DNA of 64,000 nt from assembly GCA_021513695.1 (NCBI GenBank), contig CP084166.1, forward strand, positions 1,984,001-2,048,000, given 5' to 3'. Shown here piece by piece: positions 40,181 to 64,000 of the stretch (positions are counted from its first letter, which is position 1; each line of letters opens with the position of its first letter). The position numbers and the translations under genes are program-made. Source of the DNA: Candidatus Heimdallarchaeum aukensis. GTDB lineage: Archaea; Asgardarchaeota; Heimdallarchaeia; Heimdallarchaeales; Heimdallarchaeaceae. Under the pieces are notes generated by a model. That model was not told the origin of the DNA and ran no database searches. It worked only from the letters and a program-made list of their open reading frames with translations.

Positions 40181-40964
40181 ACAAGGAAAAGTAGTGAGTT
40201 TTTTCAGTTTTTCAGGAGGAGTAGGTAAAACGACTTTAGTTGTTAACATCGCCAAAATATTAGCAGAACAAGGGAAGAAAACAATAGTGCTAGAACTAGA
40301 ATTACTTTCACCTAAATACCAAACTATTTTTGGGTTTAATCCTGCGAAATCTATAGATGAATTATATATGCAAGATTATAGAAACATCCTTGAACTAGAA
40401 ACGATTGATAGAATAATTAAGAAAAGTATAATTACAAACGATTATGGAGTAGATTTCATTATCCCTACTGCTCCAGCAACAATAGAAGATCTAATTAACA
40501 GAGATAGAGACTATCATCATAAAGATTTTGCAAACTTTATAAGAAATTTACTAGCTTATCTGCGGAAGAAATACGAAATAGTGTTGATAGACTCTCCAAG
40601 TATAACGAACACCGAAATAATGAGTGTTTTACTGCTATCAGATAAATTAGTTTATGTCTGTATTCCCCCTTTGGGAGATATATCTAAAGGAATAGAAAAA
40701 ATAAAAAAATTTCCAGAGAGTACATTCATCGATCCGATTGATGTGATAATAAATAAAGTACCAGTAGAAACAGAGAAAGAGAGACAAATATTGGAAAGAA
40801 AAATGAAAGAACAACTAAAGAAAGAACAAATAAACAAAGTAAGAGTAGTAGAATTATCACTAGATTATATAAAAGAGAATGTAAAAGAAAGGAGAATATA
40901 CATAGAAAAAGAAAAGGAAAAAAACATGTACCAAACACTGCTAAACTACAGTAAAGAATTATGA
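40164..40964 (+). CDS. ParA/MinD-family P-loop ATPase
   Basis: Deviant Walker A FSGGVGKTT and Walker B-like IVLIDSP. 266 aa. Confidence 0.75.
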   Translation: MMKKDEQGKVVSFFSFSGGVGKTTLVVNIAKILAEQGKKTIVLELELLSPKYQTIFGFNPAKSIDELYMQDYRNILELETIDRIIKKSIITNDYGVDFIIPTAPATIEDLINRDRDYHHKDFANFIRNLLAYLRKKYEIVLIDSPSITNTEIMSVLLLSDKLVYVCIPPLGDISKGIEKIKKFPESTFIDPIDVIINKVPVETEKERQILERKMKEQLKKEQINKVRVVELSLDYIKENVKERRIYIEKEKEKNMYQTLLNYSKEL

Positions 40965-40995
40965 TATCAAATTTAAAAGAAAAGAAAAATAAAGT

Positions 40996-41050
40996 CTATC
41001 ACTATCCCTATCTCTAAAACTATCACTATCACTATCATTATCACTATTAT
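40996..41050. repeat. hexanucleotide tandem repeat (CTATCA-like, ~9 units)
   Basis: ctatcactatccctatctctaaaactatcactatcactatcattatcactatta, located between the convergent gene ends of ParA and the beta-helix gene. Confidence 0.5.
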
Positions 41051-41131
41051 TTTCATTTGAACTAGCAAAAAATAAACAAAACAAAACGAAAAGGGAAAAA
41101 AACACAAAAGAATGGAGATAAGAGAAAGAGA

Positions 41132-42514: not shown

Positions 42515-42652
42515 GAATAAATAGACCTTTTTTTATTAATAAATTTTTGTAAATTATTGCTTTACCAGTCATTTAATGTTATAAAACAGTAAATTAAAGT
42601 CACATTATAAAAGAAATAAATGAATTAAGAATAGTAAATTGGTACCTATAAA

Positions 42653-42710
42653 AAACGTCTATAAAAACTATCGACACTTTTGAGAAACGTCTATAAAAAC
42701 TATCGACACT
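42653..42710. repeat. two 26-bp direct repeats (aaacgtctataaaaactatcgacact) with 32-bp period, each containing a TATA-like box
   Basis: Exact copies at 42653..42678 and 42685..42710. A third partial ctataaaaa sits just upstream at ~42646. The repeats lie in the ~780-bp divergent intergenic region between the beta-helix gene and the giant gene. Confidence 0.6.
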
Positions 42711-43293
42711 AACTCAATTTCTAGCAAAAAATATCTCTTAAAATTATTTATAAAGTGGTAAAAAATTCTCCTGAGTTTAAATACTACCAATAGCTATATA
42801 TATCAGTAATTGACCAAAAAGAAAAAACTTCACACGATACTAAAAAATGTATTTTTATTTAATTAAAAGGCTGAAGAATAAGAAGTGGGATATATATACA
42901 CTGTTAGATAAAAACAACTTACGGGTTATAAAATTAAAGACGAAATAAAGAAAAAGAGAAAAATTTACAGGTATTTATAAATACCATATTGATTTAAATA
43001 AAAAAAGAGATAGTCACATTTTATGAGTCAATATAGTAAGAAATTGGTCAACCCCAAGTACCCAAACACTACTATGTTGACTCATAAATCCTTGAAAAAA
43101 TCAAAGTCAAGGATAACCCAGAAAGAAAAAATTGACTCATGTTGCTTTTTAGCAAACTTTTTTTCAATGACAGATCTGGGTGAAAAAAGGAAAGTGAAGA
43201 TTTTTTCACTTTCCACACTCTCCTTTAAGTTTATTTTCAAGCATAATAGTGCTTCTTTTTGTTCTCTTTCAAAAAAAATAAAGGTGGATAAGA

Positions 43294-46200
43294 ATGGAGA
43301 AAATAAAGATAAAGAAAAAATTAACAATTTATTCAATTTTAATAATATTAATATTCTCTAATTTAAGTGGATTGAATTTTAAATTTTTGCAAGCAGAAAA
43401 TGGAGATCAAAGTCCTCCATCTATACTCAGAGTAACACAGTTTCCTGAAGTTCCTACCCAATTCGATGGAGTGGTAGTCTATGTAGAAGTGGAAGACGAA
43501 ACAGGGTTCAGTTCTATATATTTGATGTACGAAAGGAATAATAACTTAACATCCATACCAATGAAGTATTTACCCAATTATTATGGGAATGGAACATGTT
43601 TTTACGCTTCTCTTCCTTCTTTTTCTGCAGGAACTAAAATAACTTATTTTATCGAAGTGACTGATTCGAGTGAGAATCAGAATATTGCACACTCACTAAA
43701 ATATGATTATGTGGTGGTGAGTGACGGAATACCAAAAATACAGTTATTAAACGAACCAAAATTTCTGTATTTAGGAGATGAATATAAATTCCAGTTTACA
43801 ATTTATGATGAGGATAATATTTCTCTTCAAGATACAGGGATTGATCCACCTTTATTATATTACAGAACAGAAAGAGTAGAAGGAACACAACAAGTAGTTT
43901 ATAATTCCACAACAGGGGTATTTGAAAGCGTTTTACCTTCTGTGAATCTACTAGATGGAGAAATGAGTGAAGGAGAAAATATAGAGGTGTGGGTAGGAGC
44001 TTATGATAAAAGTCCTGCACACCAGTATGGGGAGAGCAAACATTTGCAGTTACCTGTCATTAACGAGAAACCTTACATTTATGGCGTAGATAGGTATCCA
44101 TATATTCCTTTGTATAATGAAAGTTTCAATTTAACCACAACAATCTATTATAGAGAAAATATAGGTATGAATATCACGCAAGTATCAGCAACTATAAACC
44201 GATATGATGAGGTTACACAAAAAATTACAAAACAAAGTTATATTTTAACCCAAAGTGAATATTCAAAATTTGTATTTACAGGAATAATAGAATCGATTGG
44301 GTATATAGACAATATAGAATTGAAAATAAATTGTAAGTACACTTCAGATTACCAAATAGAAGAAGCAGAAGTAGAAAAACAAGAAAAAAGTTTTAGAGTA
44401 AGAGATTGCGAAGCGCCAACAATATTAGAAAGTGGATTTAGCAACGGGGTATCAACATTAAAAGAAGGAGAAGAAGTAAAAATCTATGCTAATGTACTTG
44501 ATCGTTTGAATACAAAAGATGTCACTGCAATAATTACTGAAGAGTATAAATCAGGATTGCAACTTATTCGTTCATCAAAGGAATATTTCCAGAAAATGGG
44601 TTATTATGGAGATGACGGGATAAGTTTTATTCAACAGATGAGTATTGATCAGAGTATAAGTGGAGATTTTTATTTTGATGGATTAGTTCTAAAAGAAGAA
44701 TATGTTAGTGCAGTGAGAAAAGAAGCAGCAAGTGAAACATTAGTTATTTACGCGGTAGAAGGAAAAAATGAATTATTTATCAAGATTATCAACCCAGAAG
44801 GGTTTGTTCCTTTAAGTTATAATCAGTTGGTTATACAAGCAAAAGCTATAGGACAAGATATTCTTTTAGCAGGAGTATACACTGATTTAGGAGAAACAGT
44901 TGTTTGGAATGAAACAGTAGGAGAGTATGTTTACGATAATGTACTGCCTATAGACAAGGTTTTTACTATAGATGAATACGGAACAGCTTGTTTATACAAT
45001 CTTCAAAATATGGACGATATTACAAATGCGATATGGATAAAATTCGTTCCTGCTGAAGGAGGAAATTTTAGTTCATCTGATGGTTTAAGTATTGATAATA
45101 TTAGATTGTTTAGTATAAATACTTTAAATGGCGAGAGAATAGACTCTTATCATCAAGAAATAAATCATGATTTTGTTGAATACTATGGCTATTATCAAGC
45201 TAAAAAGGTTGATCAATTAATAACTTTCTATATCCAAGCGAGCGACGGAATAAATATCCAAACCCAAAATAATGAGGAAACAATAATAGTAACTGATGGT
45301 AGACCTCCAACATTTGCCATCAAACAAATTTCTGGAGTGGATATAGGTGATATTGAAATCAACTTTAGCATGGCTATCACTGATTATTCTATAATAGATC
45401 CAACTGATGCAGTAAATGTTCGTTTTCATTACAAGATTAACGGATTAGAAGAAATAAGTGCGAACTTAACAGTTGAGAATAACTGGGACGATAAAGGAAA
45501 AGTGTGGGTGTATAGGCTTGACACTACAACAAATTTAAATTTCAACGATATGTGGAAATATTGGTTCAGTGCAGAAGATCCTTGTGGTAATCGTGGAGAA
45601 AGTAAACATTACTCTTTTGTTGTAGAAGAAAATAGTGCACCTACAATATCTTTAACTTGTCAGACCGTTACATATAATGGAGAAGAAAAAACAGTTGTTG
45701 ATCCTGCAGGGGCAGAAATAGGAATATCTGGAGAATATTTAGACATAAACATGGATATAACAGAGAATGAAGGAGGAAGTGGAATAAAACTTATCCAGCT
45801 ATATTGGTATACTTCTTCTCATGAATCAAATTGCTGGAGTTCGGAAGTATATAGTTTTATGTCTAGCTATTCTATCACTAATTTAACTGTAGCAGAAAAA
45901 ATGATACATAATTTCGATAAAGTAGGTATACTTTATTATTATGCACAAGTAATTGATCATGCAGGAAACATTTATCAAACACCAGAATATCAAGTACAGC
46001 TAATAGATAATGTAAATCCTATAATAAAAATCAACTCTGAATATAATAGTCCAAATGGGTTGTATAATGTCGACAATTCGTATGGTGATATAAGCTATAA
46101 TGAAGATGCATATATCACTTTAGAAATAGAAGATGCATCTACTATAACTAACCTAATTTTGGAGGCAGAAACATCTCAAGGTACCTTTGTAGGAGAAGTG

Positions 46201-49200
46201 GTATGGGACGAATATTATCATGATTGGACATTACAACATTATCAGATTAAAATAAATAAAGCGTGGGAAGTAGGAGAAAATATCAATCTAAAGATTACAG
46301 CGGTAGATTCTTTTGGAAATGCACTAAATAATATTTTTTTGGGTACAGAATACATTGTAGACAAACTTCCTCCTGTTTTACTCTCCTATTCGGATAATAA
46401 TTATGAACTGGGGGGAGGAGAAATAACTATTTCTTATCAAGTTAAGGATATAGGAAGTGTTGTAGCTTACCTTTATTATAATTTCAATTCTTCAGTGGAA
46501 ACACCCTCAACTGAAAATGCTACTCTTTCAGATTTTCAAGTAGCTGTAATGGATCTTGAATCAATAGATAATACGAAATATGCTCCTTATACTGAATGGT
46601 CATTTACCAAAACATTATCTCTGCCATCGGGAATATTATATCCTGCGGTATCAATATATTTTGTAGCATTAGATGAATATAATAACAGTTTAACATGTAT
46701 TGGAGGAAAAGCATATTCCCTACCTAATTTTGATATAGAAACAAGTATTTATACTCCTCGTATTGAATCATATAAAAAACTTGCTGATAAATTTGGAGAT
46801 TTTAGAGAATACCCCAGAGATAACGTAGATAAAAGATGGGTGGGAGAAACAGAAACAACTATAATTTCCTATGATTTTAGTGTAGAAGAAAATTTTTCTA
46901 TAAACTACGCTCATCCTTATGGAGATAGATTTGCAAAAAGTGTAGTAGATTTTTACACTCATTATTGTGAAAATAGTTTCTATGCTCTTGGAGCACCAGA
47001 TGGAAACATGGCAGAAGTTACTGGAAGTATACGTTTAGACATGGGGCATGAAGGAATAATAGTAAGTAAGCCTGGAGATGGAGCAGATTTCACAGTTTAT
47101 GGAGGGTCAGGACAATATCAAGTATTAGTATTTAACTCGTGGTTTCCTATGGAAGAATATCATTATCTAGGAACAGGAACGGGTATAACTTCTTGGGACT
47201 TAGAAGATGAAGGGTTAGATAAAGCACGATATGTAGAAATATGGAGTGAAACCGTAGAGGATGACATTCCAGTATATATTGATGCAATAGAAGCAATACA
47301 TTGTGATGGAGATAGTTTCACTGCTCAAGAATGGCAGAATGCAGAAGAAAATAATGGAATTCCAGCAAATATAGAAGATAAGCAACTTTCAATGTATTAC
47401 CATGGATATAATGAAAATAATGAAATATTAGAAATCACAGCCAATCCTGAATTTTATGACTACTTATATTTACCCCTATGGATGAATACTTATCTCCCTC
47501 AAATAAAACTGTCAATCAATTTTGTACAGCAACCTTATTCTGTTGATCTTTTTGCGGTAGATAATATGGCAAGAGATACTCTGATGCAAAATGGAAGTTA
47601 TGTGCATCTAGGAAAAATAGATGGCTCAGGAGTGTATTATTTTGCATGTTCATACCCTAATAGATACACAGGTGTGTTGTTTAAAATAAGACATAACTGG
47701 GCAAGAATAACGAGCGAACTTGTGCAAATGTACAATTATGAATTTACGCTTGATTATATTAAATTATTTGGCATTTTTTATAGAATAGAAGAATTATCAG
47801 GACCAAATTATTTGGAATTCGAAAAAATGTATGAAAAAAATAGCGGGAGAAATCCTGACCCTCTATTTTTGCAAATGGAAAATTATAATGGTGAAAATCA
47901 GAAAAGTGCAAGTATAGGTAATATCACAGAGGAAATATGGTATGATGCAATTAATGAATTGGAAGTTTTTTATGGTACAAAGGGAGAATGGTTTTATCTT
48001 GCAATTGATAGAGCAAGTGAGAAACCTAATAATTCCATTGTTACAGATGTTCAAATTGTTTATGTAGACGGAGAAAGATTATATTGGAAGAGTGCATACA
48101 ATAACCAAAAAAGAATAGCTTTAATTTTTGACACTTTAGAATTCTATGAAACTTATGGAGTGAGTAATTACTTTTACATTATGTCGAATGCAACGATTGA
48201 TGGAGATGGATTTACAGCTTATTATTATTCTTTTTATTCTAATAATGAATTGTTACAAGGGTTCAACTATGAAGGGATACCTCAGGCAGATTTCAGGACA
48301 GGTGATGCACTTAACCCCACTCTTGAAGATACAAGTTACGATTCTCCATGGTGGAATAACCCATTAGATTTTACCTCTCTCCATTCAGATAAACACGGGT
48401 GTATAGTCGTACAAATCCAAGAAAATCAATCTGGTAATCTTGATCATCTAAATTTTGAAGGATATTACTCCTTCTTGTTGGATGATCTCTATCTTGGTGG
48501 AGAAGAATTACATGAAAATAGAATCGGTTATCTCCCTATACATATAGAAGGATTTAGCTACTATAATGGAATAATGAACGGTTTTTATATTACTGACGAT
48601 ATTCACCCCAAACTAAGATTACAGACATCTATCGAGAATCTTTATTCTCATCCCTTAGAATTAAAGTATGTTCTTCCTGTCGCATTTATTGATTATGGAG
48701 AAGGGTGGTTACCCAGAGAAATAGAAAATTATGATAATAGCTACTTAGCTAATGAAAGATATAGATGGATTGAGGTAGAATTTCACAATAAGATTCAATA
48801 TGATATTACAGAACTAAATAATGATTCATGCACGCTTTGGCAGAAAGTGTTTGACTCTCAATCAAATGAGATTTATTTTGAAGAGAGCTATACTCATTAT
48901 AAGAGTAAAAATGTAGATAATGAATTTACTAAAAGTTTCTCCCACATAATCCCTGAATCAGAAGCTATTTTTCCAAGTTCTTATCAGTACTTTACTTATA
49001 GAGCAAGTTTAAACTATGTAGGAAGTATTTCTTCTTCCGATTACATACAAGTTGATTCACCAGAGTTTAGAATAGGAAATACAAAAAAAGAAGATTCAAA
49101 TATCAATGAACAATATGAAAGAGCGAAAGATGGAAACAGATTCTATTATTTCCTTCCATATGAGAGTGATACAAATTCTATTGCATTTGTGAATATCTCA

Positions 49201-55965: not shown

Positions 55966-55967
55966 AA

Positions 55968-58900
55968 ATGCAAAAAATCAAATCTAAAATGAATACTTTT
56001 CTAGGCAAATTGAATAAACGTAGTCTTGTTATTACAGGAGTAGCGTTATTTATTTCAGTAATTGTTATCCTTCAGAGTTTCTCTATTGCTCTCTATCCTC
56101 AATCATCAGACGATGATAGCTATACCTTTTTCTACTCTGACTTTTCAGATAAAGAAGAGTGGAAAGGAGTTTATCGCTTATCTTGGGGGTCTATAATTGT
56201 AGATAGTAATTTTAATGCTATGAGTAAAAAAATAGACCTTTATTGGTATGGTATGCAACAGTTGTTCTTAGAAGTGAAAGGAATAGATAGTTTAAAACTT
56301 GATTCTTCTTCAGCAATACAAGTTATAGACGCTGATACTTCTCGCATCTTATATGAACTTCGAGGATCTCAACTTTCTTCATTTAATGTCTCTGTAGACT
56401 TGTCCGCATACGTGTATGAAGACACTTCAGCGCTATATATCAATATTATTGGAAGCATAAAAATTATTGATTATATAAGAATTTTTACTCCTAAACTGTA
56501 TTATCATAATTTTCTTAACGATGGAAAAACTTTTCCGAATGCTTATCACGAATTTAATCAGTTATATATTGATTATTTAGCCTACACAGAAGAAGTGACC
56601 TATGAAACTCCAGTTATCAAAGTTCCAGAAGGTAATAACGTTAATCTTACTTTCGCTTTTAATTTAGTCCCATCGCTTACTTCTAATTATTCTATGTTTG
56701 CTCATATTTATGCCGATATATATGGATTAGGAGGTTTTGGTGAAGTAGAACAGCGAATAGAATTAGGATACAGTTATACAAATATGAGTTTTGGAGCAGA
56801 CTATGTCTCTCTTATTGATAAAGAAATAACACTTTTAGGAAACTACTATGTAAGATTTTACTTAAATTTTGATTGTTTTGAAACAAATGAGGAAGACATA
56901 CAAATAAAATTAATTGCTTTTTTCATTCAACCTCACAATAACGTTGAAGAGCAGTCTGAATATGTCGACCCTGCACTTTATATTCGCAAATCTCCCAATG
57001 CTTATATCTCTGAACAAGTAGTAGAAGGAAGGGTATTTAATGCTCTTACCGTTGATAGACAAGGATACATTGCTACATATAAGATCTCACATATGGATAC
57101 GATATTTTATGATAAATTAGATCCAAGCACTATTGAAGAAAATTATACAATAGGTAACCCTGATACCTTAGTATATGATTTCGACAGTTCTAAGAATCTG
57201 AGATTAAACTCCTCAGGTTACCTTTATTCCTCTGAGTCTATTGGTAGTGATTTCTCTGTTTCTACTTCTTTTAATCTTAATAGTTTAGCAAGTAACCGTA
57301 TTTTTGCAGGTATAGGTATTTATGGCACACATTCTTACGAATTTGCTGTAGGGAATATGACTCTTTATGAAGAAACTTATGTTGATGAAGAGACAACCAC
57401 AGTGAAAGTAAAAGAGGTTTATCAAGCTTATTTACATGTCTACAAAGACAATTTATTAATTCGCTCTTATGCTCTCAATCAGACTTTTGGAGAAGGACAA
57501 GTTATTTCTCTTTCCCTTTCCTCTAAATTTGGTTATAAAGCTTATAGTGTTCAAATTAATTATGAAGAAATAGTTATTTCTCTTTCCGAGATTATAGCGA
57601 TAGGAGGAAAACCAGGTATATTTGCTAAAATTCCTCAACCTAGCCCTGATAACTTTGTTTCCTTTTACTACTTATCCGCAAGTGGTATAACAGAATATAG
57701 TCCCCGTCGTTTATTGATTTATAGTAAAACTCAACAATATGTTACTGTTGTACTTAAAGCTACAAGAATCAATCCTTTGAGTTTTTCTTCGGAAAAAGTA
57801 GTTATAGACGAAAAGAAGTTATCTCAAAACAAAGAAGGTATACTTTATTTTTCTTATATTCCTAAACCTTTTGAGTATATTCATTTAGAAGTGTATTGTA
57901 CTAATCCTGATGAAGAGCTAACTAGTTCATTTAGTATTTTGGCTATGAAATTCTCAGGAATACACGAATATAATACAATTATCCCCTCTTATGATTACTA
58001 TGATATATCTGATTCTGTCTATTTCGAGAAACGTAATCTTATTTCTGAAGACCTTTCTGATAATTTTATTGCCTCTTATGACGCAATAGTAGAAGAAAGG
58101 TATAGTTTATTGGAGATAGGTGCTGAAGCACAAGACTCTCTTCCCGATACCCAAATAGATATTTATACTCGAAAATTAAATAGTGGGCTTCCTTTCACCT
58201 TCCAAGGAACAGTTTACTGGACTGAACATGAAAGTGGAAGTTTCTTTTCTCATGTTCTTTATCTTGATCTTTCACCCGGAAATTATGAGATAAGATTAGA
58301 ACGACCTTTAATTTTTACAAGTAAATTAAATATTAGTTACCTTCTTCTTCGACCTTTGACCTCTTATGCTAATGCTGTAACTGATTCAGTAGGTTTTACC
58401 AACCCTTTATCTTGGGAAAAAGATTTTACCACTGATAAAATTGATGCATTCAATGGTATAGACCAGTTTATAGAAGAGAGTTATTACTCTTTAGTTCATC
58501 CCAGTTGTTATATGAAAGACGATGGAAATGGGAACTATGAACAATATACTGATTGGACGCCTTCTACAGATGATACACAGATATGGTCAGTAGAAGATAA
58601 CCTTGCTTCCTTTGTAGGAGGAGTAAAACTTGATATTCCTGATGTTTCCACTGGTCCTGAAGGCTATCCCTATTTGCGTTTTGTTGCTAGAACATATTCA
58701 AACTGTACAATAGACTTAAAATTAACTTTAACTTACTCTGATGGAAGCACAAACGAGTACTATTATTCTGTTTCTCAAGAACCAAAAGTATACTTTTTCA
58801 ATTTTGATTATACTGATAGTCTTAAAATTTTATCGGGAATAGAATTTTTCACCAACTATATCCTTTATAACGATAAGGACGAGTCTGTTATCGTTTCCGA

Positions 58901-61900
58901 TATTCATCTTTATCGCTTTACTAACATAGAAGTCAAACTAGAAGATCAGTCGTATTTAGATGATAGTGGATTTGACACCTCTGACTATTCAGGAGACAAT
59001 TTTTCTGTTGCTCCCTTTTTGAGCGATTATTATGGCTTGCTTGATATAGATTTAAATTATATTCCATCAAACGAAAGGGTTAAAGTATGGACAGATAACG
59101 ATGCGGAAGGATTAAAACAATATTACTATAATTATAACAACCATTATTTGCTTCCTTCTACCGTTACTGTTCCTATAAACGATTGGAGGGTAAATAAAGG
59201 AGCGTCAGTAGGAATCTATTCTACTCCCTTAACTTCATTGAATCTTAATTTTATGATTAGTATGGATATTGAAAATAGAAAGACGTTTAATGAGGATATG
59301 ACAATTGAACTTTTTGAATATAAATTCAAGCCTAATACTGATGCTTATGCTACTTCTCTTCCTTATTCTTATTATAAACTTAAGTTCTATCTTTATGGTT
59401 CAATTGAAATGCAAAATGAAGAAGGAGAGATGGAAGGAGGATATTTGTACTACCGTTTATTTGCTTATGATGGAGTAGAAGAAACTGAACTTACTCCTAC
59501 TTACGATATGTTGAGCGATAATACTGATTTTCTTCAAGCTATATCTACTAATACTTTAGACTTTCCTAATATGCTAAGAATAACTGAAAATTATGAAAAA
59601 GGTATTACGCACCTTATTTATAATACAAATGAAGAAAGTGAACTTCGTGCTGTTTTTCCTGTCAATTTTGAAGAAGCGTATACTATTTCTATTCACTTTG
59701 GTCAAGATCAAGAAATTAAAAGAGAGTATGCCGATGCTGATTCTAAAGATGAGGTTTTTGACACACCATTTTTTGTAGGTGTATCCTCTTTTGACACTTT
59801 TCTGGATCTATATGGAGGAAGTGGAGAAAAAGCTACTCTATTATTCGCTGATGTAACAATTCCTAGTTCAATGTTTCCTTCTCTTTTTATTCAGACTTCT
59901 GAAGCTATTAACTCCACTACTGAACTTACATGGGGAACAGATTATTCTATTAATTGGTCACCTGAACCTACTTTCTATGTTAATTCTTACGAACCTTCTA
60001 GAAACGAAGAGACAGGGTATAAACCTCTTGCACATCACATTAACTTGTTTGAAAACCGTTATTTACTTTTGGAAGATTTAAAAACAATTTTTGAAGAAAT
60101 AGATGTTACTCCCTATTTAGTAAACGAAAACTATGGAGACTTTATTTATTTACCCAAATATTATTCTGCCACGCTTTCTACTCTTCAAGATGTATATGTT
60201 ACTACTTATGACTTAAGCTTTGAAGGGACAGGAAATTTCCAACTTATAGGTAATACCATACTCAAATCTTATATTTTTGATTATAACGACGAGAAAAACA
60301 AAAATTGGAAAAATGAATTTATTGATAAAACTGTTAGTTCTTTGAAGTTTATTTCTACTTATGAAAAAGACACTTTACCTAAAACCTATCTTTCATGTTT
60401 AGATTATTTATCTTATGAATATTACGCAAAAAACAAAAAAAGAGAGTATTCTTTTACTGACGGTTTTACTAATTATGAAGACTGGACAACAGTTGATTTT
60501 AGCCTCTTTGAAAGAGTAAAAGAACCTTCTTTACGTTCTTCTCCTCTAGGCTTAGTTATAGATGAGAATTCCATAGATTTTACCAGCGAAAATATGGATA
60601 GTATTTACGATTATTTTGACCCCACTGATGAGTTAGAAGATCTTTTCTCTTTTTCTGGAAAAACTATATATTATCTTCCCAGTTACTATATGAAAGGAGG
60701 AAATGACCAACCTGGTCATAGCCTTTGGGATAGAGTAATTGCAGGTGAAGCATTTCAAGGATTTAACCCTTCCTCTTCCCCCTATTATCAGAACCAGCTA
60801 TATCTTTACAACAATTGGATGTACGATTTGCAAAGCCAAATAATACAAAAAGAAGGATATAATATATATGACCAGAATGAATTACAGATTTATAATATCT
60901 ACGATGAAATTCCAGGTGATCACCGTGACTTTTCTTGTATGTTACCCGATTATTTAAGATTTAAACCAGTTTACTATTCTACTAGTTTACCTAAAAATTT
61001 TATATGGTCGTTTGATATAAACGTTGATTCATGGAGTCTTGGTAACCTTGCTGAAAACTATGTCAAATTTTTTGACAAAGAAGAAGGAAGATACTCTTTC
61101 TATATTAGTATACCTATTATTTTACCTTCTCATGGAAACAAACCTTATTATCAAGATTTAGCCCAAGCTCCCAATGTGTTAAGACTTTTCATCTATTATG
61201 ATTCAGGAACAGAATATCACGATTCAGATACAGAGACAGGATTTTTTAAACTTGACCCCCATTATAGTATCTATTTAGGTCGATCGATAATAGGAATTTG
61301 GAAGGCTTCAGAAAGTGTATCCCTCCATTTCGAAATAGCGGTAGAGGAAAAAGAGATAGACGAGAGTTATGCTATTTATCAAGAGGGTGTTAATGGAGGT
61401 CCTCAAATTACAGCTTATTACGATTATAACCTCCAGATGTGGATAAATAATGACAATATGTACTGGGATTTGCTTAAATTGCCGATGTGGATGTTGACAA
61501 TAGCTTATCCATATAAAGACAAAGATGATAATAAAGCAATACCCAATAACTACCAGTACGACCTCATGTATAATCAGTTATTTAATACTCAAAACTCTGA
61601 AAACGGTTATATCAACCCTCAATATTCTGAGGCTTTTAACACTTACTACAAAGGATTATATGGGGATAAAGAACCTAATGGTTTTCAACCTGACGCTAGA
61701 CTGTTTTTCGATACTGGGTCATTAACTGAACATACTTACCATTGGTTGCAATATCAACGTTCTTTAGTTTCCGATAAATATTACTCTTTATCTTTATCCG
61801 AGTACGGTATCGACCCTTCTAACCCTTCTCTTTACGATTGGGATTATCACTATTATAGCAGAGACAATTATGCAGGAATGGTTCGTTCAGATTTAGCGGA

Positions 61901-64000
61901 TGTAAGGTTTGAGAACCCTCGATATGTTAGTGGAGAATATAATTGGGCTAACATAGCAAATGAAATTTATGAATATGATACTGCTTTATATAACATAGAT
62001 TATGCTTTAGATAATAGTTTATACAAAATCCCACAAAGAACAATAGGTTTTGGAGTCAATTATCCTTTTGTGGGGATAAGTGACGTTTCTATTACTCCTC
62101 TTAACTCTATTCAGACAACTGATCTGGATGAGGATGGAGAAGAAGATTTCTCAATTATCAACGGAGACGTAGCAACGGATGGAGAAAATGTTATAGTTAA
62201 ACCTGGTAGTGCAATAACCTCTTTAGATCTGACAAATGATTTGGATATAGCTATTAAATATAAAGACATAATATCTTCTTGTAGGGGTTATTATGATAAC
62301 ACTTTTCTAGACTACTCTTTCGAAGTTGGGTTACAAGATTTGCATAACCCTAATCTTAAATATTATTTTTATATGAAAAATAGCTATCCATATAACCAAT
62401 ATTTTGAGTATGTAAATTCAGGACAGATTGATAATATCGTTCCTTTTACAGAAGACGATTCTTTACCAAGTTTAGATTCAGAAATAACTCAACCACTTAT
62501 GGGAACATATGTGGGGATAAAAGGTTACGCTCAGAGTTCGTCAGACTATTCATTAATAACAGACACACTTTCTTCTACTTTCAAACGTATATTTCAACCC
62601 AAGAATTCGATTTTATATGATTATTTAAATATAAAATATGATGTTACCACTAAAATATTGACTTTTATACTCTGGTCGGAAAAATACGGTAATAAGCAAT
62701 CCTATGAAATAAGCTATAACCTTTCGGAAACAGGAGAATTAGGAACGAATGATTTGACAAATTATACCTTATATTTTAAGACAGAGAACGCTTACTTGTT
62801 TATAGATAAGATTTACACTCGAACCTTTATGCCTGTAGAGGATACTAATTCTGAACGCTATTACAGAGGAGCAGGAAAACTAGGGGATTATTATCTTTAC
62901 TCTCCTGTTAATCATGGGTTAGAATTACAAAATCAAGTTAAACTTAACTATGAAGATTATAATCTTAATTCTTTTCCTTCCACTGAATTTTATTTCATAC
63001 CTACTTCAGAGTCCAGTTTCTCCTTAGATTTATTTGGAATAAAGAGTGATGATACACTCGAGAATTTTCTTAAGTTGGAAATAAATGGAAAAGAGTGTAA
63101 ACTTTCATTAGATTCTGGAGACTCATGGAATTCTCTCAATAATACAGAAATAGAGAATATGTTTGATGTGGTGAATAGTTATACTTGGAACAGTTTATCT
63201 ATTCATCGTGGGAGTGAAGAAGACCAGCTGATTATAACTCTGAATAATCAAGATTATCCTTTCGTTTTTCATATTGATACCGAGGAATATTATAAGTACA
63301 AGTTCACTTTAACTCATAAGCGTTCAAGAACTATAATAGACAATTTATCTTTCCTTTCTCTCTATGAGGAATTTGAAAATGAAAGAAAATTGTTAGACGA
63401 TGAGTGGGAAAAAGATATTTCTCGAGGATTTTACAGACAGATACAGGTGACAAAAGCTCAATCCCAACTAATTATTTATGGTGCATCGATTATAGAAGGA
63501 GAAACAGAAGTTACAGTGACCTTCAATGATGACCCCACTACTACTGTCAGTCAAATTTGGAAACAATCTTCTATAGGATTGAAAATGGACTATTATTCTT
63601 ATCTTATACCTTCTTCTGTCGATATGTCTTTGCCAGTTAAAGTTTCTCTTTCTGTTAGTAATATGGCTATAATCAATTGGTTAAGTATTGAACCGATGAA
63701 AGATATTGAGTCTATACTTTATCTTTCTAACAATAATAAGTATATAGACCAAGTCTATAGTCCAATGGAGTATCTTTCTGGTTCAGAACTTGTCTATTCT
63801 TCCACCTATGAGCAACCTCATGCTCTTGAAGTCGGAGGAACAACACAAGTAAAGTTCAAGTATAATTATTCTCCTGAAGATCTAGATGTCGCTCCTAACG
63901 TGGTTTTTGAAGGATTTATAAAAGGACAAGGTAAAATCTCTTTCTCTTTTCAAGTTAAACTTCCAGACAAATTTACTAGTTTGAATGTGAATTTCATAGG
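55968..64000 (+). CDS. second giant secreted protein (>2677 aa, continues past the window end), N-terminal signal anchor
   Basis: ATG lies 2 nt after the upstream stop, with aggagga 8 nt upstream. Frame spot-checked open at ~56040, 57000, 58020, 60000, 62280 and 63960. It is not in the ORF track because no stop occurs in the window. N-terminus is MQKIKSKMNTFLGKLNKRSLVITGVALFISVIVIL. Composition is Y/N/S/T/D-rich, as in the upstream gene. Confidence 0.65.
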   Translation, partial: MQKIKSKMNTFLGKLNKRSLVITGVALFISVIVILQSFSIALYPQSSDDDSYTFFYSDFSDKEEWKGVYRLSWGSIIVDSNFNAMSKKIDLYWYGMQQLFLEVKGIDSLKLDSSSAIQVIDADTSRILYELRGSQLSSFNVSVDLSAYVYEDTSALYINIIGSIKIIDYIRIFTPKLYYHNFLNDGKTFPNAYHEFNQLYIDYLAYTEEVTYETPVIKVPEGNNVNLTFAFNLVPSLTSNYSMFAHIYADIYGLGGFGEVEQRIELGYSYTNMSFGADYVSLIDKEITLLGNYYVRFYLNFDCFETNEEDIQIKLIAFFIQPHNNVEEQSEYVDPALYIRKSPNAYISEQVVEGRVFNALTVDRQGYIATYKISHMDTIFYDKLDPSTIEENYTIGNPDTLVYDFDSSKNLRLNSSGYLYSSESIGSDFSVSTSFNLNSLASNRIFAGIGIYGTHSYEFAVGNMTLYEETYVDEETTTVKVKEVYQAYLHVYKDNLLIRSYALNQTFGEGQVISLSLSSKFGYKAYSVQINYEEIVISLSEIIAIGGKPGIFAKIPQPSPDNFVSFYYLSASGITEYSPRRLLIYSKTQQYVTVVLKATRINPLSFSSEKVVIDEKKLSQNKEGILYFSYIPKPFEYIHLEVYCTNPDEELTSSFSILAMKFSGIHEYNTIIPSYDYYDISDSVYFEKRNLISEDLSDNFIASYDAIVEERYSLLEIGAEAQDSLPDTQIDIYTRKLNSGLPFTFQGTVYWTEHESGSFFSHVLYLDLSPGNYEIRLERPLIFTSKLNISYLLLRPLTSYANAVTDSVGFTNPLSWEKDFTTDKIDAFNGIDQFIEESYYSLVHPSCYMKDDGNGNYEQYTDWTPSTDDTQIWSVEDNLASFVGGVKLDIPDVSTGPEGYPYLRFVARTYSNCTIDLKLTLTYSDGSTNEYYYSVSQEPKVYFFNFDYTDSLKILSGIEFFTNYILYNDKDESVIVSDIHLYRFTNIEVKLEDQSYLDDSGFDTSDYSGDNFSVAPFLSDYYGLLDIDLNYIPSNERVKVWTDNDAEGLKQYYYNYNNHYLLPSTVTVPINDWRVNKGASVGIYSTPLTSLNLNFMISMDIENRKTFNEDMTIELFEYKFKPNTDAYATSLPYSYYKLKFYLYGSIEMQNEEGEMEGGYLYYRLFAYDGVEETELTPTYDMLSDNTDFLQAISTNTLDFPNMLRITENYEKGITHLIYNTNEESELRAVFPVNFEEAYTISIHFGQDQEIKREYADADSKDEVFDTPFFVGVSSFDTFLDLYGGSGEKATLLFADVTIPSSMFPSLFIQTSEAINSTTELTWGTDYSINWSPEPTFYVNSYEPSRNEETGYKPLAHHINLFENRYLLLEDLKTIFEEIDVTPYLVNENYGDFIYLPKYYSATLSTLQDVYVTTYDLSFEGTGNFQLIGNTILKSYIFDYNDEKNKNWKNEFIDKTVSSLKFISTYEKDTLPKTYLSCLDYLSYEYYAKNKKREYSFTDGFTNYEDWTTVDFSLFERVKEPSLRSSPLGLVIDENSIDFTSENMDSIYDYFDPTDELEDLFSFSGKTIYYLPSYYMKGGNDQPGHSLWDRVIAGEAFQGFNPSSSPYYQNQLYLYNNWMYDLQSQIIQKEGYNIYDQNELQIYNIYDEIPGDHRDFSCMLPDYLRFKPVYYSTSLPKNFIWSFDINVDSWSLGNLAENYVKFFDKEEGRYSFYISIPIILPSHGNKPYYQDLAQAPNVLRLFIYYDSGTEYHDSDTETGFFKLDPHYSIYLGRSIIGIWKASESVSLHFEIAVEEKEIDESYAIYQEGVNGGPQITAYYDYNLQMWINNDNMYWDLLKLPMWMLTIAYPYKDKDDNKAIPNNYQYDLMYNQLFNTQNSENGYINPQYSEAFNTYYKGLYGDKEPNGFQPDARLFFDTGSLTEHTYHWLQYQRSLVSDKYYSLSLSEYGIDPSNPSLYDWDYHYYSRDNYAGMVRSDLADVRFENPRYVSGEYNWANIANEIYEYDTALYNIDYALDNSLYKIPQRTIGFGVNYPFVGISDVSITPLNSIQTTDLDEDGEEDFSIINGDVATDGENVIVKPGSAITSLDLTNDLDIAIKYKDIISSCRGYYDNTFLDYSFEVGLQDLHNPNLKYYFYMKNSYPYNQYFEYVNSGQIDNIVPFTEDDSLPSLDSEITQPLMGTYVGIKGYAQSSSDYSLITDTLSSTFKRIFQPKNSILYDYLNIKYDVTTKILTFILWSEKYGNKQSYEISYNLSETGELGTNDLTNYTLYFKTENAYLFIDKIYTRTFMPVEDTNSERYYRGAGKLGDYYLYSPVNHGLELQNQVKLNYEDYNLNSFPSTEFYFIPTSESSFSLDLFGIKSDDTLENFLKLEINGKECKLSLDSGDSWNSLNNTEIENMFDVVNSYTWNSLSIHRGSEEDQLIITLNNQDYPFVFHIDTEEYYKYKFTLTHKRSRTIIDNLSFLSLYEEFENERKLLDDEWEKDISRGFYRQIQVTKAQSQLIIYGASIIEGETEVTVTFNDDPTTTVSQIWKQSSIGLKMDYYSYLIPSSVDMSLPVKVSLSVSNMAIINWLSIEPMKDIESILYLSNNNKYIDQVYSPMEYLSGSELVYSSTYEQPHALEVGGTTQVKFKYNYSPEDLDVAPNVVFEGFIKGQGKISFSFQVKLPDKFTSLNVNFI

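What the first reader, a model, noticed from the sequence alone, without database searches (positions are those of the whole stretch)
43294..64000. Translationally coupled pair of giant surface proteins (4223 aa plus >2677 aa, more than 20.7 kb of coding sequence)
The two ORFs are separated by 2 nt, and a ggagga ribosome-binding site for the second lies inside the end of the first.
- **First protein:** Sec signal, then more than 25 repeated beta-sandwich/Ig-like modules, each announced by a D-x-x-[AP]-P-x-[IV] motif, then a C-terminal TM helix with a basic tail.
- **Second protein:** an N-terminal signal anchor and similar Y/N/S/T-rich composition.

Both are extremely rich in N-glycosylation sequons, so both are probably heavily glycosylated and displayed on the cell envelope. 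A giant paired surface assembly like this could form a fibre, sheath or protrusion matrix, or mediate cell-cell or partner attachment. It is unlikely to be a standard S-layer gene and is the most distinctive accessory feature of the window. A divergently transcribed beta-helix surface protein and a tandem-repeat control region lie immediately upstream.
Basis: partly seen in the sequence, partly recalled or inferred. Interest (0 to 1): 0.8.

Follow-up and report, generated by a model that had tools for sequence, protein, structure and literature searches.

The report
Known aloposon twin giant genes
The two huge back-to-back genes are real, but they are the already published "Otus and Ephialtes" giant genes of a mobile element (aloposon) in the Asgard archaeon Candidatus Heimdallarchaeum aukensis; they most likely encode membrane-anchored surface proteins whose function is still unknown.

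Summary
The core observation holds. ORF1 (43294-55965, 4223 aa) ends in TAA. Two nt later ORF2 starts at 55968, with AGGAGG 8 nt upstream, and is still open at the window end.

The window is Ca. Heimdallarchaeum aukensis, and ORF1 is exactly UJG39998.1. Wu et al. 2022 (PMC8813620) described this locus type as an "aloposon": tandem 3000-6000-aa genes (Otus, Ephialtes), four upstream genes including a MinD/ParA ATPase, and a tRNA downstream. I verified these features here or in the 94%-identical H. endolithica copy, where ORF2 is 5541 aa and ends 36 nt before tRNA-Asn. The syntenic endolithica site lacks the giants.

Both genes are under purifying selection (dN/dS 0.15 and 0.24).

- 18 Ig-like modules are supported, not more than 25.
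- The strict motif occurs 8 times.
- ORF2 has no such modules.
- N-glycosylation sequons are depleted, not enriched.
- The "tandem repeat" is 2 x 32 nt.

Added here: ORF2 has a second hydrophobic helix at about aa 3942, followed by about 1580 K/R-rich, probably cytoplasmic residues. Homologues occur only in Heimdallarchaeaceae.

Surface display is well supported but inferred. An adhesin or contact function is a guess.

The parts
35501..35605 (-). Intron-containing tRNA-Gly(GCC). It is host flank, 80 nt left of the block shared with the endolithica aloposon.
   Evidence: Rfam tRNA 45.9 bits. ARAGORN with introns reads Gly(gcc). It is also present at the empty endolithica site, L008 11221-11325.
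35686..64000 (.). Block collinear with the H. endolithica PR6 element (the paper's Aloposon2) at 93.8% nt identity. It runs on beyond the window end.
   Evidence: blastn of window against L003. PR6 carries an extra ~1 kb rve IS inside the nuclease gene.
35764..36675 (-). Cas4-like PD-(D/E)XK nuclease gene. It is found both in aloposons and at the 'empty' PR6 site.
   Evidence: PF12705 E 2e-11. TIGR00372 cas4 E 7e-10, below cutoff. 73% identical to the copy in the HeimV2-like element. Window 34397-36919 aligns to L008.
36765..38219 (+). DUF4365 protein gene (restriction-endonuclease-like N-terminal domain). Homology to the empty PR6 site ends 155 nt into this gene, at 36919.
   Evidence: PF14280 E 5e-12. 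PADLOC Aga_REase E 5e-8. Breakpoint.
38241..38540 (-). HxlR-type winged-helix regulator, first of the conserved upstream gene set.
   Evidence: PF01638 E 2e-7. 48% identical to the homologue in the paralogous element L006.
38708..38980 (+). 90-aa protein with no known family. A gene of the same size (91 aa) sits at the same position in L006.
   Evidence: No sequence similarity was detected between the two.
38999..40180 (+). 393-aa protein with no known family, immediately upstream of and overlapping the ParA-like gene. It may be the ParA partner.
   Evidence: No Pfam, NCBIfam or PHROG hit. 33% identical over 385 aa to the 378-aa protein of L006. Only its own cluster was found in the word-index search.
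40164..40964 (+). MinD/ParA-family P-loop ATPase, the hallmark upstream gene of aloposons.
   Evidence: PF13614 E 2e-14 and PF01656 E 3e-12. phrog_164 ParA-like E 8e-16. 31% identical to the L006 copy.
41132..42514 (-). Secreted-type right-handed beta-helix protein (NosD/Beta_helix plus TSP3 repeats), divergent from the giant operon. It is sequon-rich, unlike the giants.
   Evidence: PF05048 E 1e-19, PF13229 and PF18884. Hydrophobic N-terminus. 11 sequons in 460 aa.
42515..43293 (.). 779-nt divergent intergenic region. It holds a 2 x 32-nt direct repeat (42644-42707), a 19-nt inverted repeat (43020-43038 / 43070-43088) and an AGGTG 11 nt before the ORF1 ATG.
   Evidence: TRF finds no tandem array here.
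43294..55965 (+). Giant gene 1, 4223 aa, identical to UJG39998.1 (K9W45_09095). Predicted type I membrane protein.
   Evidence: dN/dS 0.15 against the PR6 orthologue. No Pfam, NCBIfam, PHROG, PADLOC or PDB-sequence hit.
43294..43398 (+). Signal-peptide-like N-terminus (aa 1-35): MEKIKIKKK, a hydrophobic core, then LQA|EN.
   Evidence: Sequence and hydropathy. The same layout is seen in paralogue Q1. No dedicated predictor was available.
43402..43686 (+). Ig-like module 1 (aa 37-131).
   Evidence: Found by an HMM built without it, E 6e-6. Included in A1.
45289..46695 (+). Array of 4 Ig-like modules (aa 666-1134).
   Evidence: Module HMM.
46696..49590 (+). Central non-module region (aa 1135-2099). 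It is the fastest-evolving part (omega up to 0.28) and lies within the stretch (aa 958-2564) that does not match in the paralogue. Candidate distal or variable region.
49591..50628 (+). Array of 3 Ig-like modules (aa 2100-2445).
51001..51987 (+). Array of 3 Ig-like modules (aa 2570-2898). The module at aa 2674-2786 was modelled.
52336..53628 (+). Array of 4 Ig-like modules (aa 3015-3445).
54178..54834 (+). Two Ig-like modules (aa 3629-3847).
54868..55194 (+). Most conserved patch of the protein family (aa ~3859-3967), nearly invariant between lineages that are ~30% identical overall.
   Evidence: Alignment A3. Lowest omega, 0.06, for codons 3602-4001.
55492..55767 (+). Last Ig-like module (aa 4067-4158).
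55837..55962 (+). C-terminal membrane anchor (aa 4182-4197, ALILSFSLFIGSLTFI) plus a 26-aa basic tail (net +11). There is no PGF-CTERM motif.
   Evidence: Conserved in paralogue Q1.
55954..55959 (+). AGGAGG Shine-Dalgarno-like site for gene 2, inside the last codons of gene 1.
   Evidence: SD-like motifs in this window precede operon-internal genes (L10, L12, ParA), not first genes. GGAGG is conserved at the paralogous junction.
55968..64000 (+). Giant gene 2, first 2677 codons. At least 3095 aa on the source contig, and 5541 aa in the PR6 orthologue UJG42822.1.
   Evidence: dN/dS 0.24. No family or PDB hit.
56022..56096 (+). N-terminal hydrophobic helix of gene 2 (aa ~19-43), preceded by a K-rich stretch. 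Predicted signal anchor.
   Evidence: Strongest hydrophobic 19-mer of the protein, KD 2.49. Conserved in paralogue Q2.

Best explanation
This is the giant-gene pair, named Otus and Ephialtes, of an aloposon. It is the copy in Candidatus Heimdallarchaeum aukensis, most probably the paper's 'Aloposon3'. An aloposon is an integrated, tRNA-associated mobile element so far seen only in Heimdallarchaeaceae.

**How it most likely works**
1. *One operon (shown from sequence).* The two genes form one operon. Gene 2 is translated by re-initiation at an AGGAGG site 8 nt before its ATG, and only 2 nt separate stop and start.
2. *Protein 1 (inferred).* It is exported by a Sec-type signal peptide and stays tethered by a C-terminal helix with a basic cytoplasmic tail. 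About 4100 acidic residues lie outside the cell. They form at least 18 Ig-like beta-sandwich modules that flank a ~965-aa variable central region, which would make a long fibre.
3. *Protein 2 (inferred from the full-length orthologue).* It is anchored by an N-terminal helix and exposes about 3900 non-repetitive acidic residues. It re-enters the membrane at about aa 3942 and ends in about 1580 K/R-rich, probably helical, cytoplasmic residues.
4. *Function (guess).* The pair forms a giant surface structure that mediates attachment or cell-cell contact. The upstream HxlR, 90-aa, 393-aa and ParA-like genes would serve regulation and partition or positioning of the element.
For: **Identity**
- ORF1 is the exact sequence of UJG39998.1 of H. 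aukensis, and the orthologue is UJG42821.1 of H. endolithica.
- The paper defines aloposons by tandem 3000-6000-aa genes, a downstream tRNA and four upstream genes including MinD/ParA. It names Aloposon3 (aukensis) and Aloposon2 (endolithica) as one conserved element (PMC8813620).

**Features verified here**
- Sizes are 4223 aa and 5541 aa.
- tRNA-Asn lies 36 nt after gene 2 in PR6.
- The HxlR, p90, p393 and ParA set is conserved in a second element that is 30% identical.

**Mobility**
- The syntenic PR6 site keeps the flank up to window 36919. It then goes straight to a tRNA and the L11 operon, without the giants.

**Real genes**
- dN/dS is 0.15 and 0.24.
- The ORFs are intact in five assemblies.
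- Codon usage matches the host, with RSCU r = 0.91.

**Coupling**
- The junction is conserved.

**Surface location**
- Hydrophobic ends fit the positive-inside rule. The ectodomains have net charge -340 and -302, and the protein 1 tail is +11.
- The only two strong hydrophobic 19-mers of protein 2 are at aa 20 and 3942. They coincide with a composition switch: K+R rises from 7% to 11-17%, and S/T/Y/N falls from 30-35% to 20-25%.
- The modules have an Ig-like fold.
- The module profile's only PDB sequence hits are bacterial surface adhesins (R28, Lap, SiiE, GspB-type), at E 0.001-0.07, which is marginal.
- The neighbouring genes encode secreted-type proteins: the beta-helix/TSP3 protein here and a signal-bearing S8 peptidase in the paralogue.
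Against: - There is no experimental or expression evidence for localisation.
- No dedicated signal-peptide or TM predictor was available, so topology rests on hydropathy and composition.
- The aa 3942 helix of protein 2 contains E, N and D residues and could be a buried helix rather than a membrane span.
- That helix and the C-terminal region were seen only in the endolithica orthologue. The aukensis gene 2 runs off both the window and its contig. Its full product is not in the same 90% cluster as the endolithica one.
- Neither giant has any hit in Pfam, NCBIfam, PHROGs, PADLOC or PDB, so the adhesin idea rests on fold class and marginal profile hits.
- No integrase or transposase is recognisable in the conserved block. 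The mechanism of mobility, and the word 'transposon', therefore remain unproven.
- The tRNA downstream of gene 2 could not be checked for this genome.
Confidence: 0.6

Rival explanations
1. Transfer apparatus of the element. The giants are not host adhesins. They would be the element's own device for horizontal spread. One form would be a cell-bridging or fusion complex analogous in role to conjugative aggregation substances. Another would be envelope 'spikes' on membrane vesicles or virus-like particles that carry the element, as with pleolipovirus spikes or plasmid-vesicle proteins. The cytoplasmic 1580 aa of protein 2 and the ParA-like ATPase would couple DNA or the element to the membrane complex.
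For: - The pair is the invariant core of every aloposon.
- The pair is also part of HeimV2, which the authors call a virus/aloposon hybrid and which is hit by host CRISPR spacers (PMC8813620).
- The PR6 paralogue next to the 16S rRNA gene fits HeimV2.
- Protein 1 has the signal peptide plus C-terminal anchor topology typical of archaeal enveloped-virus spikes (the comparison is from my own knowledge).
- Protein 2 appears to span the membrane, with large domains on both sides.
- A partition-type ATPase is always adjacent.
- Divergence between the two species is mosaic, with a stretch at dS = 0, which suggests recent exchange.
Against: - No relatives were found in IMG/VR.
- There are no PHROG hits.
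- No capsid, packaging, relaxase or VirB4-type genes lie in the conserved block.
- Spikes or mating proteins of 4000-5500 aa are unprecedented.
- No episomal form has been reported for aloposons.
Confidence: 0.2
2. Surface shield or exclusion function. The giant acidic ectodomains would form a coat that blocks adsorption of viruses or entry of competing elements. This would be superinfection exclusion benefiting both element and host.
For: - Mobile elements commonly carry exclusion and defence cargo (established knowledge).
- The block carries Cas4-like and DUF4365/REase-like nuclease genes.
- In PR6 the syntenic site lies next to a CRISPR-Cas locus.
- The central region of protein 1 is variable, consistent with an arms race.
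Against: - Neither giant hits any PADLOC model.
- dN/dS is well below 1 everywhere.
- Nothing specifically links the giants to defence.
Confidence: 0.1
3. Ordinary host envelope component (S-layer, sheath or protrusion matrix) that merely happens to lie near mobile-element genes.
For: - Codon usage matches host genes.
- Purifying selection acts on both genes.
- The predicted location is at the surface.
Against: - The pair is absent from the syntenic site of the sister species and sits in another genomic context there.
- A diverged second copy exists in one genome.
- Homologues were found only in Heimdallarchaeaceae, with 10 hits among 1.84 billion representatives.
- There are no S-layer domains and no PGF-CTERM motif.
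- Sequons are depleted.
Confidence: 0.07
4. Spurious ORFs or an assembly artefact: low-complexity translation of non-coding or misassembled DNA.
For: - No database domain hits at all.
Against: - P(no stop) is about 1e-152 and 1e-96.
- Codon-position G+C is like host genes.
- dN/dS is 0.15-0.24, with only 1-2-codon indels across 6% nt divergence.
- The sequence is identical or orthologous in NCBI, Logan and JGI assemblies.
- There is no tandem DNA repeat inside the genes.
- A module gives a confident Ig-like fold.
Confidence: 0.01

Closest known systems
Aloposons of Ca. Heimdallarchaeum (Otus/Ephialtes giant genes; Wu et al. 2022, Nat Microbiol, PMC8813620)
   Same: - Same organism and the same protein accession.
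- Tandem giant genes of 4223 aa and about 5500 aa.
- The upstream HxlR, p90, p393 and ParA/MinD genes.
- tRNA association.
- A near-identical copy in H. endolithica at another site.
   Different: Nothing differs in kind, because this is the published element. What is added here is annotation the paper's text does not give:
- topology of both proteins;
- 18 Ig-like modules plus a variable centre in gene 1;
- a non-repetitive gene 2 with a cytoplasm-like 1580-aa C-terminus;
- conserved translational coupling;
- sequon depletion;
- the remnant at the empty site.
HeimV2, the 'virus/aloposon hybrid' of H. endolithica (probably my locus L006, next to the 16S rRNA gene)
   Same: - Homologous giant pair (4475 aa and 5326 aa, about 30% identity to this pair).
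- Same coupling design at the junction.
- Homologous HxlR, 378-aa, ParA and Cas4-like genes.
   Different: - An S8 peptidase gene sits directly upstream of the giants, in place of the divergent beta-helix gene.
- The Cas4-like gene is at a different place and in a different orientation.
- The centre of gene 1 is unrelated.
- It is reported to carry virus-like genes and CRISPR protospacers.
Bacterial giant Ig-like-repeat adhesins (SiiE, LapA/Lap, Bap, streptococcal R28, SraP/GspB)
   Same: - Very long, acidic, repetitive Ig-like beta-sandwich arrays displayed on the surface.
- They are the only PDB sequences touched by the module profile and the whole-family profile.
- The fold matches generic Ig-like domains.
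   Different: - The profile hits are marginal (E 0.001-0.09).
- No RTX/T1SS signal, LPXTG or serine-rich-repeat features are present, and no Pfam Big/Cadherin/HYR hit was found.
- Here anchoring is by a C-terminal TM helix in an archaeal membrane.
- The gene is paired with a second, non-repetitive giant.
Halomucin and other archaeal giant surface proteins (knowledge-based comparison)
   Same: Multi-thousand-residue, acidic, secreted archaeal proteins with unknown or protective function.
   Different: - No sequence relationship was detected.
- Halomucin is a single mucin-like gene, not part of a conserved pair on a mobile element.
- Sequons are depleted here.
Surface and contact proteins encoded by mobile elements (enterococcal aggregation substance PrgB/Asa1; pleolipovirus spike proteins; plasmid-vesicle proteins of pR1SE). 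Knowledge-based, functional analogy only.
   Same: - The element encodes a membrane- or wall-anchored surface protein that would promote contact or entry and thus the element's spread.
- The signal peptide plus C-terminal anchor topology resembles archaeal enveloped-virus spikes.
   Different: - No homology was detected.
- The proteins here are 5-10 times larger.
- No conjugation or virion genes lie in the conserved block.

Membership tests
Aloposon (Wu et al. 2022) | Tandem genes encoding proteins of 3000-6000 aa (Otus and Ephialtes) | tested here: met
   Gene 1 is 4223 aa. Gene 2 is more than 2677 aa in the window, at least 3095 aa on its contig and 5541 aa in the orthologue.
Aloposon (Wu et al. 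2022) | [quoted passage not shown] | tested here: met
   HxlR(-), 90-aa, 393-aa and ParA-like genes lie at 38241-40964. The same set is present in PR6 loci L003 and L006.
Aloposon (Wu et al. 2022) | Integration at a tRNA gene downstream of the giant genes | tested here: inconclusive
   The window and its source contig end inside gene 2. The orthologous PR6 element ends 36 nt before an intron-containing tRNA-Asn. At the empty PR6 site a tRNA lies 128 nt beyond the homology break. The aukensis right end itself was not seen.
Aloposon (Wu et al. 2022) | Being the published element (same genome, same gene) | tested here: met
   There is an exact sequence match to UJG39998.1, K9W45_09095, Ca. H. aukensis. 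The block is 93.8% nt identical to the endolithica copy, as the paper states for Aloposon3/Aloposon2. The label 'Aloposon3' is my inference, because no coordinates were available.
Aloposon (Wu et al. 2022) | Mobility (different insertion sites, presence/absence polymorphism) | tested here: met
   The left flank gene (295 aa) has its PR6 orthologue about 200 genes away from the PR6 element. The syntenic PR6 site lacks everything right of window 36919.
Transposon or integrative element in the strict sense | A recognisable transposase, integrase or other recombinase belonging to the element | tested here: not met
   No such family was found in any ORF of 35686-43293 or in the giants. The rve gene in PR6 is a separate IS insertion that is absent from the window. 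The uncharacterised proteins could hide one.
Transposon or integrative element in the strict sense | Terminal direct repeats (att) or terminal inverted repeats at the ends | tested here: inconclusive
   The right end of the window's element is not available. In PR6 the element is bracketed by an inverted 194-nt duplication of the tRNA-Asn 5' part, not a direct att repeat.
Giant Ig-like-repeat adhesins (BIg/RTX type: SiiE, LapA, Bap) | Tandem Ig-like beta-sandwich repeats | tested here: met
Giant Ig-like-repeat adhesins (BIg/RTX type: SiiE, LapA, Bap) | Sequence membership in Big/Cadherin-like/HYR families, and an RTX/T1SS C-terminal signal | tested here: not met
   There are zero Pfam or NCBIfam hits at E <= 1. 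PDB profile hits to adhesins are only marginal. The C-terminus is a TM helix plus a basic tail.
Archaeal S-layer glycoprotein | S-layer domain families, a PGF-CTERM or similar anchor, and high N-glycosylation sequon density | tested here: not met
   There are no Pfam hits and no PGF motif. Sequons are depleted, with z -1.5 to -2.5. The pair is accessory, not universal.
Virus of archaea (structural genes) | Homologues among viral proteins or contigs | tested here: not met
   There are no PHROG hits for the giants. No relatives were found in IMG/VR with either giant or with the gene 2 family alignment.
ParA-type partition module | Walker-type ParA/MinD ATPase with an adjacent partner (ParB-like) gene and centromere repeats | tested here: inconclusive
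   The ATPase is met. The adjacent 393-aa gene is conserved with it but has no ParB or other family hit. Valentin-Alvarado et al. 2024 mention ParB-like proteins in aloposons (PMC11529989). No centromere-like array was identified.

The most novel reading that the evidence does not exclude
Protein 2 would be a true membrane-spanning giant, with about 3900 aa outside and about 1580 aa inside the cell. Together with the fibre-like protein 1 and the adjacent ParA-like ATPase it would form an element-encoded intercellular contact and transfer machine. Alternatively it would be the envelope spike of a vesicle-borne element. Either way it would be a new, Asgard-specific route of horizontal gene transfer in the archaeal lineage closest to eukaryotes.
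Probability: 0.12. Interest if true: 0.85.

Novelty: already known. Interest (0 to 1): 0.35.

Why it matters
The pair is one of the largest gene tandems known in archaea, about 29 kb and about 9800 aa. It sits in Heimdallarchaeum, which Wu et al. 2022 place in the Asgard clade closest to eukaryotes. It was highlighted in that paper's abstract.

Its function and the element's mode of movement are still unknown. The annotation added here turns 'two hypothetical giants' into a concrete, testable model:
- one type I Ig-repeat fibre with a variable centre;
- one apparently membrane-spanning giant with a large cytoplasmic part;
- strict translational coupling;
- restriction to Heimdallarchaeaceae;
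- an empty site with a remnant.

As a discovery it is not new, and the scan should not count it as one.

Tried and rejected
**Searches that found nothing**
- Pfam, NCBIfam, PHROGs and PADLOC on both giants, including the full 5541-aa orthologue: no hits.
- PDB by sequence with single proteins and with family profiles: nothing significant.
- The search for homologous proteins, all three counted searches plus one time-out. The full gene 1 timed out. Slices of gene 1 and gene 2 returned nothing, not even themselves. The 393-aa protein returned only itself. This is a limit of the word index, since both giants are in the collection.
- IMG/VR scans with gene 1, gene 2 and the gene 2 family alignment: none.
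- JGI metagenome scans with the gene 2 C-terminus and with the family alignment: none.

**Analyses that failed or gave a negative result**
- AF2 of the last 1200 aa of the endolithica gene 2 as a single sequence failed, with pLDDT 32.6. No fold search was made on it.
- Self-BLAST of the giants gave no hits. Only HMM or phmmer detects the module family.
- A search for a direct-repeat copy of the downstream tRNA in the window's upstream region found none.
- Supplementary files of the paper hold no aloposon coordinates.

**Ideas rejected**
- S-layer gene, heavy N-glycosylation, non-coding artefact, NRPS/PKS-like cytoplasmic enzyme (no domains, and signal/TM ends), and a known defence system.

Full report

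Yes for the core.
- ORF1 runs 43294..55965 on the + strand, 4223 codons without a stop.
- Its TAA is at 55963-55965. Two bases later ATG 55968 opens ORF2, which stays open for 2677 codons to the window end.
- AGGAGG lies at 55954-55959, inside the last codons of ORF1 and 8 nt before the ORF2 start.
- In this 32% G+C DNA a random codon is a stop with probability 0.08. Stop-free runs of this length therefore have P about 1e-152 and 1e-96, and the other frames hold 438-692 stops.
- Codon-position G+C and synonymous codon usage match the host genes of the window (RSCU r = 0.91).

**2. Where does the window come from?**
- An archaeal 23S rRNA gene is present.
- ORF1 is found, residue for residue, as UJG39998.1 (K9W45_09095) of Candidatus Heimdallarchaeum aukensis, and on a Logan contig identical to the window.
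- The sister species Ca. H. endolithica PR6 (CP084167.1) carries an orthologous locus. Window 35686-64000 aligns to it at 93.8% nucleotide identity. The only large difference is a ~1 kb rve-type IS in PR6.
- In PR6, ORF1 is 4225 aa and ORF2 is complete at 5541 aa (UJG42822.1). The pair therefore spans about 29.3 kb and about 9770 residues.
- The aukensis gene itself runs off both the window and its 110-kb contig, at 3095 codons or more.

**3. Are they real genes?**
- Against PR6, ORF1 is 92% identical in protein, with dN/dS 0.15. The first 3095 codons of ORF2 are 96% identical, with dN/dS 0.24. Every 400-codon block has omega of 0.28 or less, and only 1-2-codon indels occur.
- The ORFs are intact in NCBI, Logan (two runs) and JGI assemblies.
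- Divergence is mosaic. ORF2 codons 1-800 have dS = 0, while other blocks reach 0.27-0.45. This hints at recent exchange between the two species' elements.

**4. What is it?**

A literature search on the organism led to Wu et al. 2022 (Nat Microbiol, PMC8813620). They describe 'aloposons' in exactly these two genomes. The defining features are:
- (i) tandem genes for proteins of 3000-6000 aa, named Otus and Ephialtes;
- (iii) four consecutive upstream genes, including a bacterial MinD/ParA-like ATPase.

'Aloposon2 in Ca. H. endolithica and Aloposon3 in Ca. [quoted passage not shown] I tested each feature.
- *(i) Met.*
- *(iii) Met.* HxlR (38241-38540, -), a 90-aa gene, a 393-aa gene and a ParA/MinD-family ATPase (40164-40964) precede the giants.
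- *(ii) Met in PR6 only.* An intron-containing tRNA-Asn(GUU) starts 36 nt after the ORF2 stop. This cannot be seen for the window's own genome.

So the finding is the published Otus/Ephialtes pair, most probably Aloposon3. That label is my inference, because no coordinates are given in the text or supplements. Two later papers only cite aloposons. I found no paper that assigns a function.

**5. Evidence for mobility obtained here**
- The 295-aa gene left of the element (34439-35326) has its PR6 orthologue about 200 genes away from the PR6 element.
- I fetched that PR6 site (L008). It is collinear with window 34397-36919: the 295-aa gene, tRNA-Gly(GCC), a Cas4-like PD-(D/E)XK nuclease gene and the first 155 nt of the DUF4365 gene.
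- The PR6 site then breaks off. It continues 128 nt later with another intron-containing tRNA and the L11/SecE/Spt5 genes, with no giants.
- The giants are therefore present or absent at a tRNA-adjacent site between sister species.
- Left of window 35686, the PR6 aloposon locus is unrelated to the window.
- No integrase or transposase is recognisable in the conserved block, so how the element moves is open.
- One oddity: the PR6 copy is bracketed by an inverted, not direct, 194-nt duplication of the 5' part and upstream region of tRNA-Asn.

**6. Family and distribution**
- An exhaustive HMMER search of 1.84 billion representative proteins with ORF1 aa 3024-4223 found only 10 hits at E <= 0.001.
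- The real homologues are all from Heimdallarchaeaceae. The rest are weak Ig-domain matches in bacteria and an echinoderm.
- The best paralogue, UJG42706.1 (4475 aa), lies in a second PR6 element next to the 16S rRNA gene. That is where the paper places HeimV2, its 'virus/aloposon hybrid' targeted by CRISPR spacers.
- That element has homologous genes, with identity to the window copies of 48% (HxlR), 33% (378-aa gene), 31% (ParA-like) and 73% (Cas4-like).
- It also has an S8 peptidase gene 2 nt before its first giant, and a 4475 + 5326-aa pair. The junction of that pair is GGAGGTAAAAAATAATG, with overlapping stop and start. Tight coupling with an SD-like site is therefore conserved across lineages that are only ~30% identical.
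- In this window SD-like motifs precede operon-internal genes (L10, L12, ParA, ORF2) rather than first genes. This fits re-initiation within an operon.
- ORF1 and its paralogue match at aa 6-290, 387-957, 2565-3459 and 3705-4214, but not across the centre. ORF2 and its paralogue match over aa 17-1802 and 2229-3306.
- ORF1 and ORF2 are unrelated to each other.
- No relatives were found in IMG/VR or in the JGI metagenome collection.

**7. Anatomy of protein 1**
- *N-terminus.* MEKIKIKKK, a hydrophobic core, then LQA|EN, which is signal-peptide-like.
- *C-terminus.* ALILSFSLFIGSLTFI (aa 4182-4197) followed by a 26-aa tail of net charge +11. There is no PGF-CTERM motif. The ~4100 residues between the two ends have net charge -340.
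- *Motif counts.* The strict motif D-x-x-[AP]-P-x-[IVL] occurs 8 times, and a relaxed version 21 times.
- *Module family.* An HMM built from 14 motif-delimited units also found other units. An 18-unit alignment is stable on iteration. The units are only 13-28% identical to the reference unit. Self-BLAST sees nothing, and phmmer links the units at E 1e-4 to 1e-2.
- *Sequence-level relatives.* The module profile's only PDB sequence hits are bacterial surface adhesins (R28 at E 0.001; an adhesin 6vs7, Lap, SiiE and GspB-type proteins at E 0.009-0.07). These are marginal but consistent.
- *Non-module parts.* These are aa 132-665, a 965-aa centre (aa 1135-2099) and shorter inserts. The centre has the highest omega, 0.28, and lies within the stretch that is not conserved in the paralogue.
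- *Most conserved patch.* It is membrane-proximal, at aa ~3859-3967.

'More than 25 modules' is thus an overcount of what can be demonstrated, although about 26 domain-sized units would fit.

**8. Anatomy of protein 2**
- It has a K-rich N-terminus followed by the strongest hydrophobic stretch of the protein (aa ~19-43).
- The ectodomain that follows is non-repetitive, acidic (net -302) and S/T/Y/N-rich.
- In the full-length orthologue the only other strong hydrophobic 19-mer is at aa 3942 (KD 2.22). Exactly there the composition switches. K+R rises from about 7% to 11-17%, S/T/Y/N falls from 30-35% to 20-25%, and net charge becomes about neutral.
- I infer a topology of N-terminus in, about 3900 aa out, and about 1580 aa in.
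- This C-terminal part lies outside the window and was seen only in PR6. It has no family hit. Its single-sequence AF2 model failed, with pLDDT 32.6.

**9.
- *Sequons.* N-X-S/T sequons are not enriched.

| Region | Observed | Expected | z |
|---|---|---|---|
| ORF1 ectodomain | 37 | 46.1 | -1.5 |
| ORF2, window part | 18 | 27.7 | -2.1 |
| ORF2 ectodomain, full-length orthologue | 25 | 38.9 | -2.5 |

- The density of 0.6-0.9 per 100 aa equals that of other window proteins (0.65). The neighbouring beta-helix protein has 2.4.
- *Tandem repeat.* The 'tandem-repeat control region' is two copies of a 32-nt unit at 42644-42707. A 19-nt inverted repeat lies at 43020-43088. TRF finds no array there.

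**10. Mechanism**
- *Shown:* an operon with coupled starts, purifying selection, accessory and mobile context, and Ig-like modules.
- *Inferred:* Sec export and the two topologies, that is, a type I fibre plus a membrane-spanning giant.
- *Guessed:* a surface fibre pair for attachment or cell-cell contact.

Because the pair is the invariant core of a mobile element that also carries a partition-type ATPase, a role in the element's own spread is a serious rival. That role could be contact, fusion, or spikes on vesicles. A shielding or exclusion role is another. An S-layer role and an artefact are rejected (sections 3, 5, 6 and 9).

**11. Verdict**

The feature is already known and named, and its function remains unknown. 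The domain and topology picture, the conserved coupling, the empty-site remnant and the inverted tRNA-Asn flanks are incremental additions. Interest is 0.35.

Noticed in passing
L003 1008-1198 and L002 26684-26877 (Ca. H. endolithica PR6): The orthologous aloposon is bracketed by inverted copies (194 nt, 87.6% identical) of the tRNA-Asn(GUU) upstream region plus the 5' part of the tRNA and its intron. The left copy is truncated before the T arm, and the right copy is the intact gene. Classical tRNA integration would give direct repeats of the 3' part.
   Followed up: partly
window 35686-36919; L008 11406-12637; L003 1353-3618: The Cas4-like nuclease gene plus the first 155 nt of the DUF4365 gene occur twice in PR6. 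One copy is a stub at the 'empty' syntenic site (96% identical to the window). The other is at the left end of the PR6 aloposon (91-93% identical), where it is interrupted by a ~1 kb rve IS. The stub is closer to the aukensis copy than to its own genome's second copy.
   Followed up: partly
window 55968-58367 (ORF2 codons 1-800) against L002: There are no synonymous differences (dS = 0) between the two species over 2.4 kb, while neighbouring blocks reach dS 0.27-0.45. This points to mosaic divergence and recent recombination or transfer.
   Followed up: no
window 18916-22339: The 23S rRNA gene is 3424 nt against a 2987-position archaeal model, so it holds about 440 nt of insertions. It stands alone, with no 16S or 5S gene nearby. 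The only 16S gene of PR6 lies next to the HeimV2-like element (L006 1-1412).
   Followed up: no
window 41132-42514 (-): The divergent NosD/beta-helix/TSP3 protein has 11 N-X-S/T sequons in 460 aa (2.4 per 100 aa), 3-4 times the density in the giants. In the paralogous element its place is taken by a signal-bearing S8 peptidase gene coupled to the first giant (L006 7881-9998).
   Followed up: partly
window 41000-41047: A (CACTAT)x8 microsatellite lies between the convergent ends of the ParA-like and beta-helix genes.
   Followed up: no
window 31948-33967 and L008 13229-14538: The ribosomal L1-L10-L12 genes lie left of the element in aukensis. L11/SecE/Spt5 lie right of the insertion site in PR6, where a CRISPR-Cas locus (Cas7/DevR, Cas5, Cas3, Cas4, Cas1, Cas2) sits left of the 297-aa gene. 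Local gene order around the site therefore differs between the two species.
   Followed up: no
window 27803-28567 (-), 22592-23773 (+), 6538-6594 (-): Host context genes include a Ras-family small GTPase (Pfam Ras E 1e-40), an FtsZ homologue and a C/D-box sRNA.
   Followed up: no
window 54868-55194 (ORF1 aa ~3859-3967): This membrane-proximal patch (IRYGP..SSYTT..YSG..RDGYWQ..GGD.IGERVYF..SSWSSW.YVEYKG) is nearly invariant between aloposon lineages that are only ~30% identical overall. It is a candidate interaction or processing site.
   Followed up: no
L008 12766-12869 (-): The intron-containing tRNA next to the empty site is called SeC(tca) by ARAGORN. With the canonical 37/38 intron position I read the anticodon as UCC (Gly). 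The identity was not settled.
   Followed up: partly
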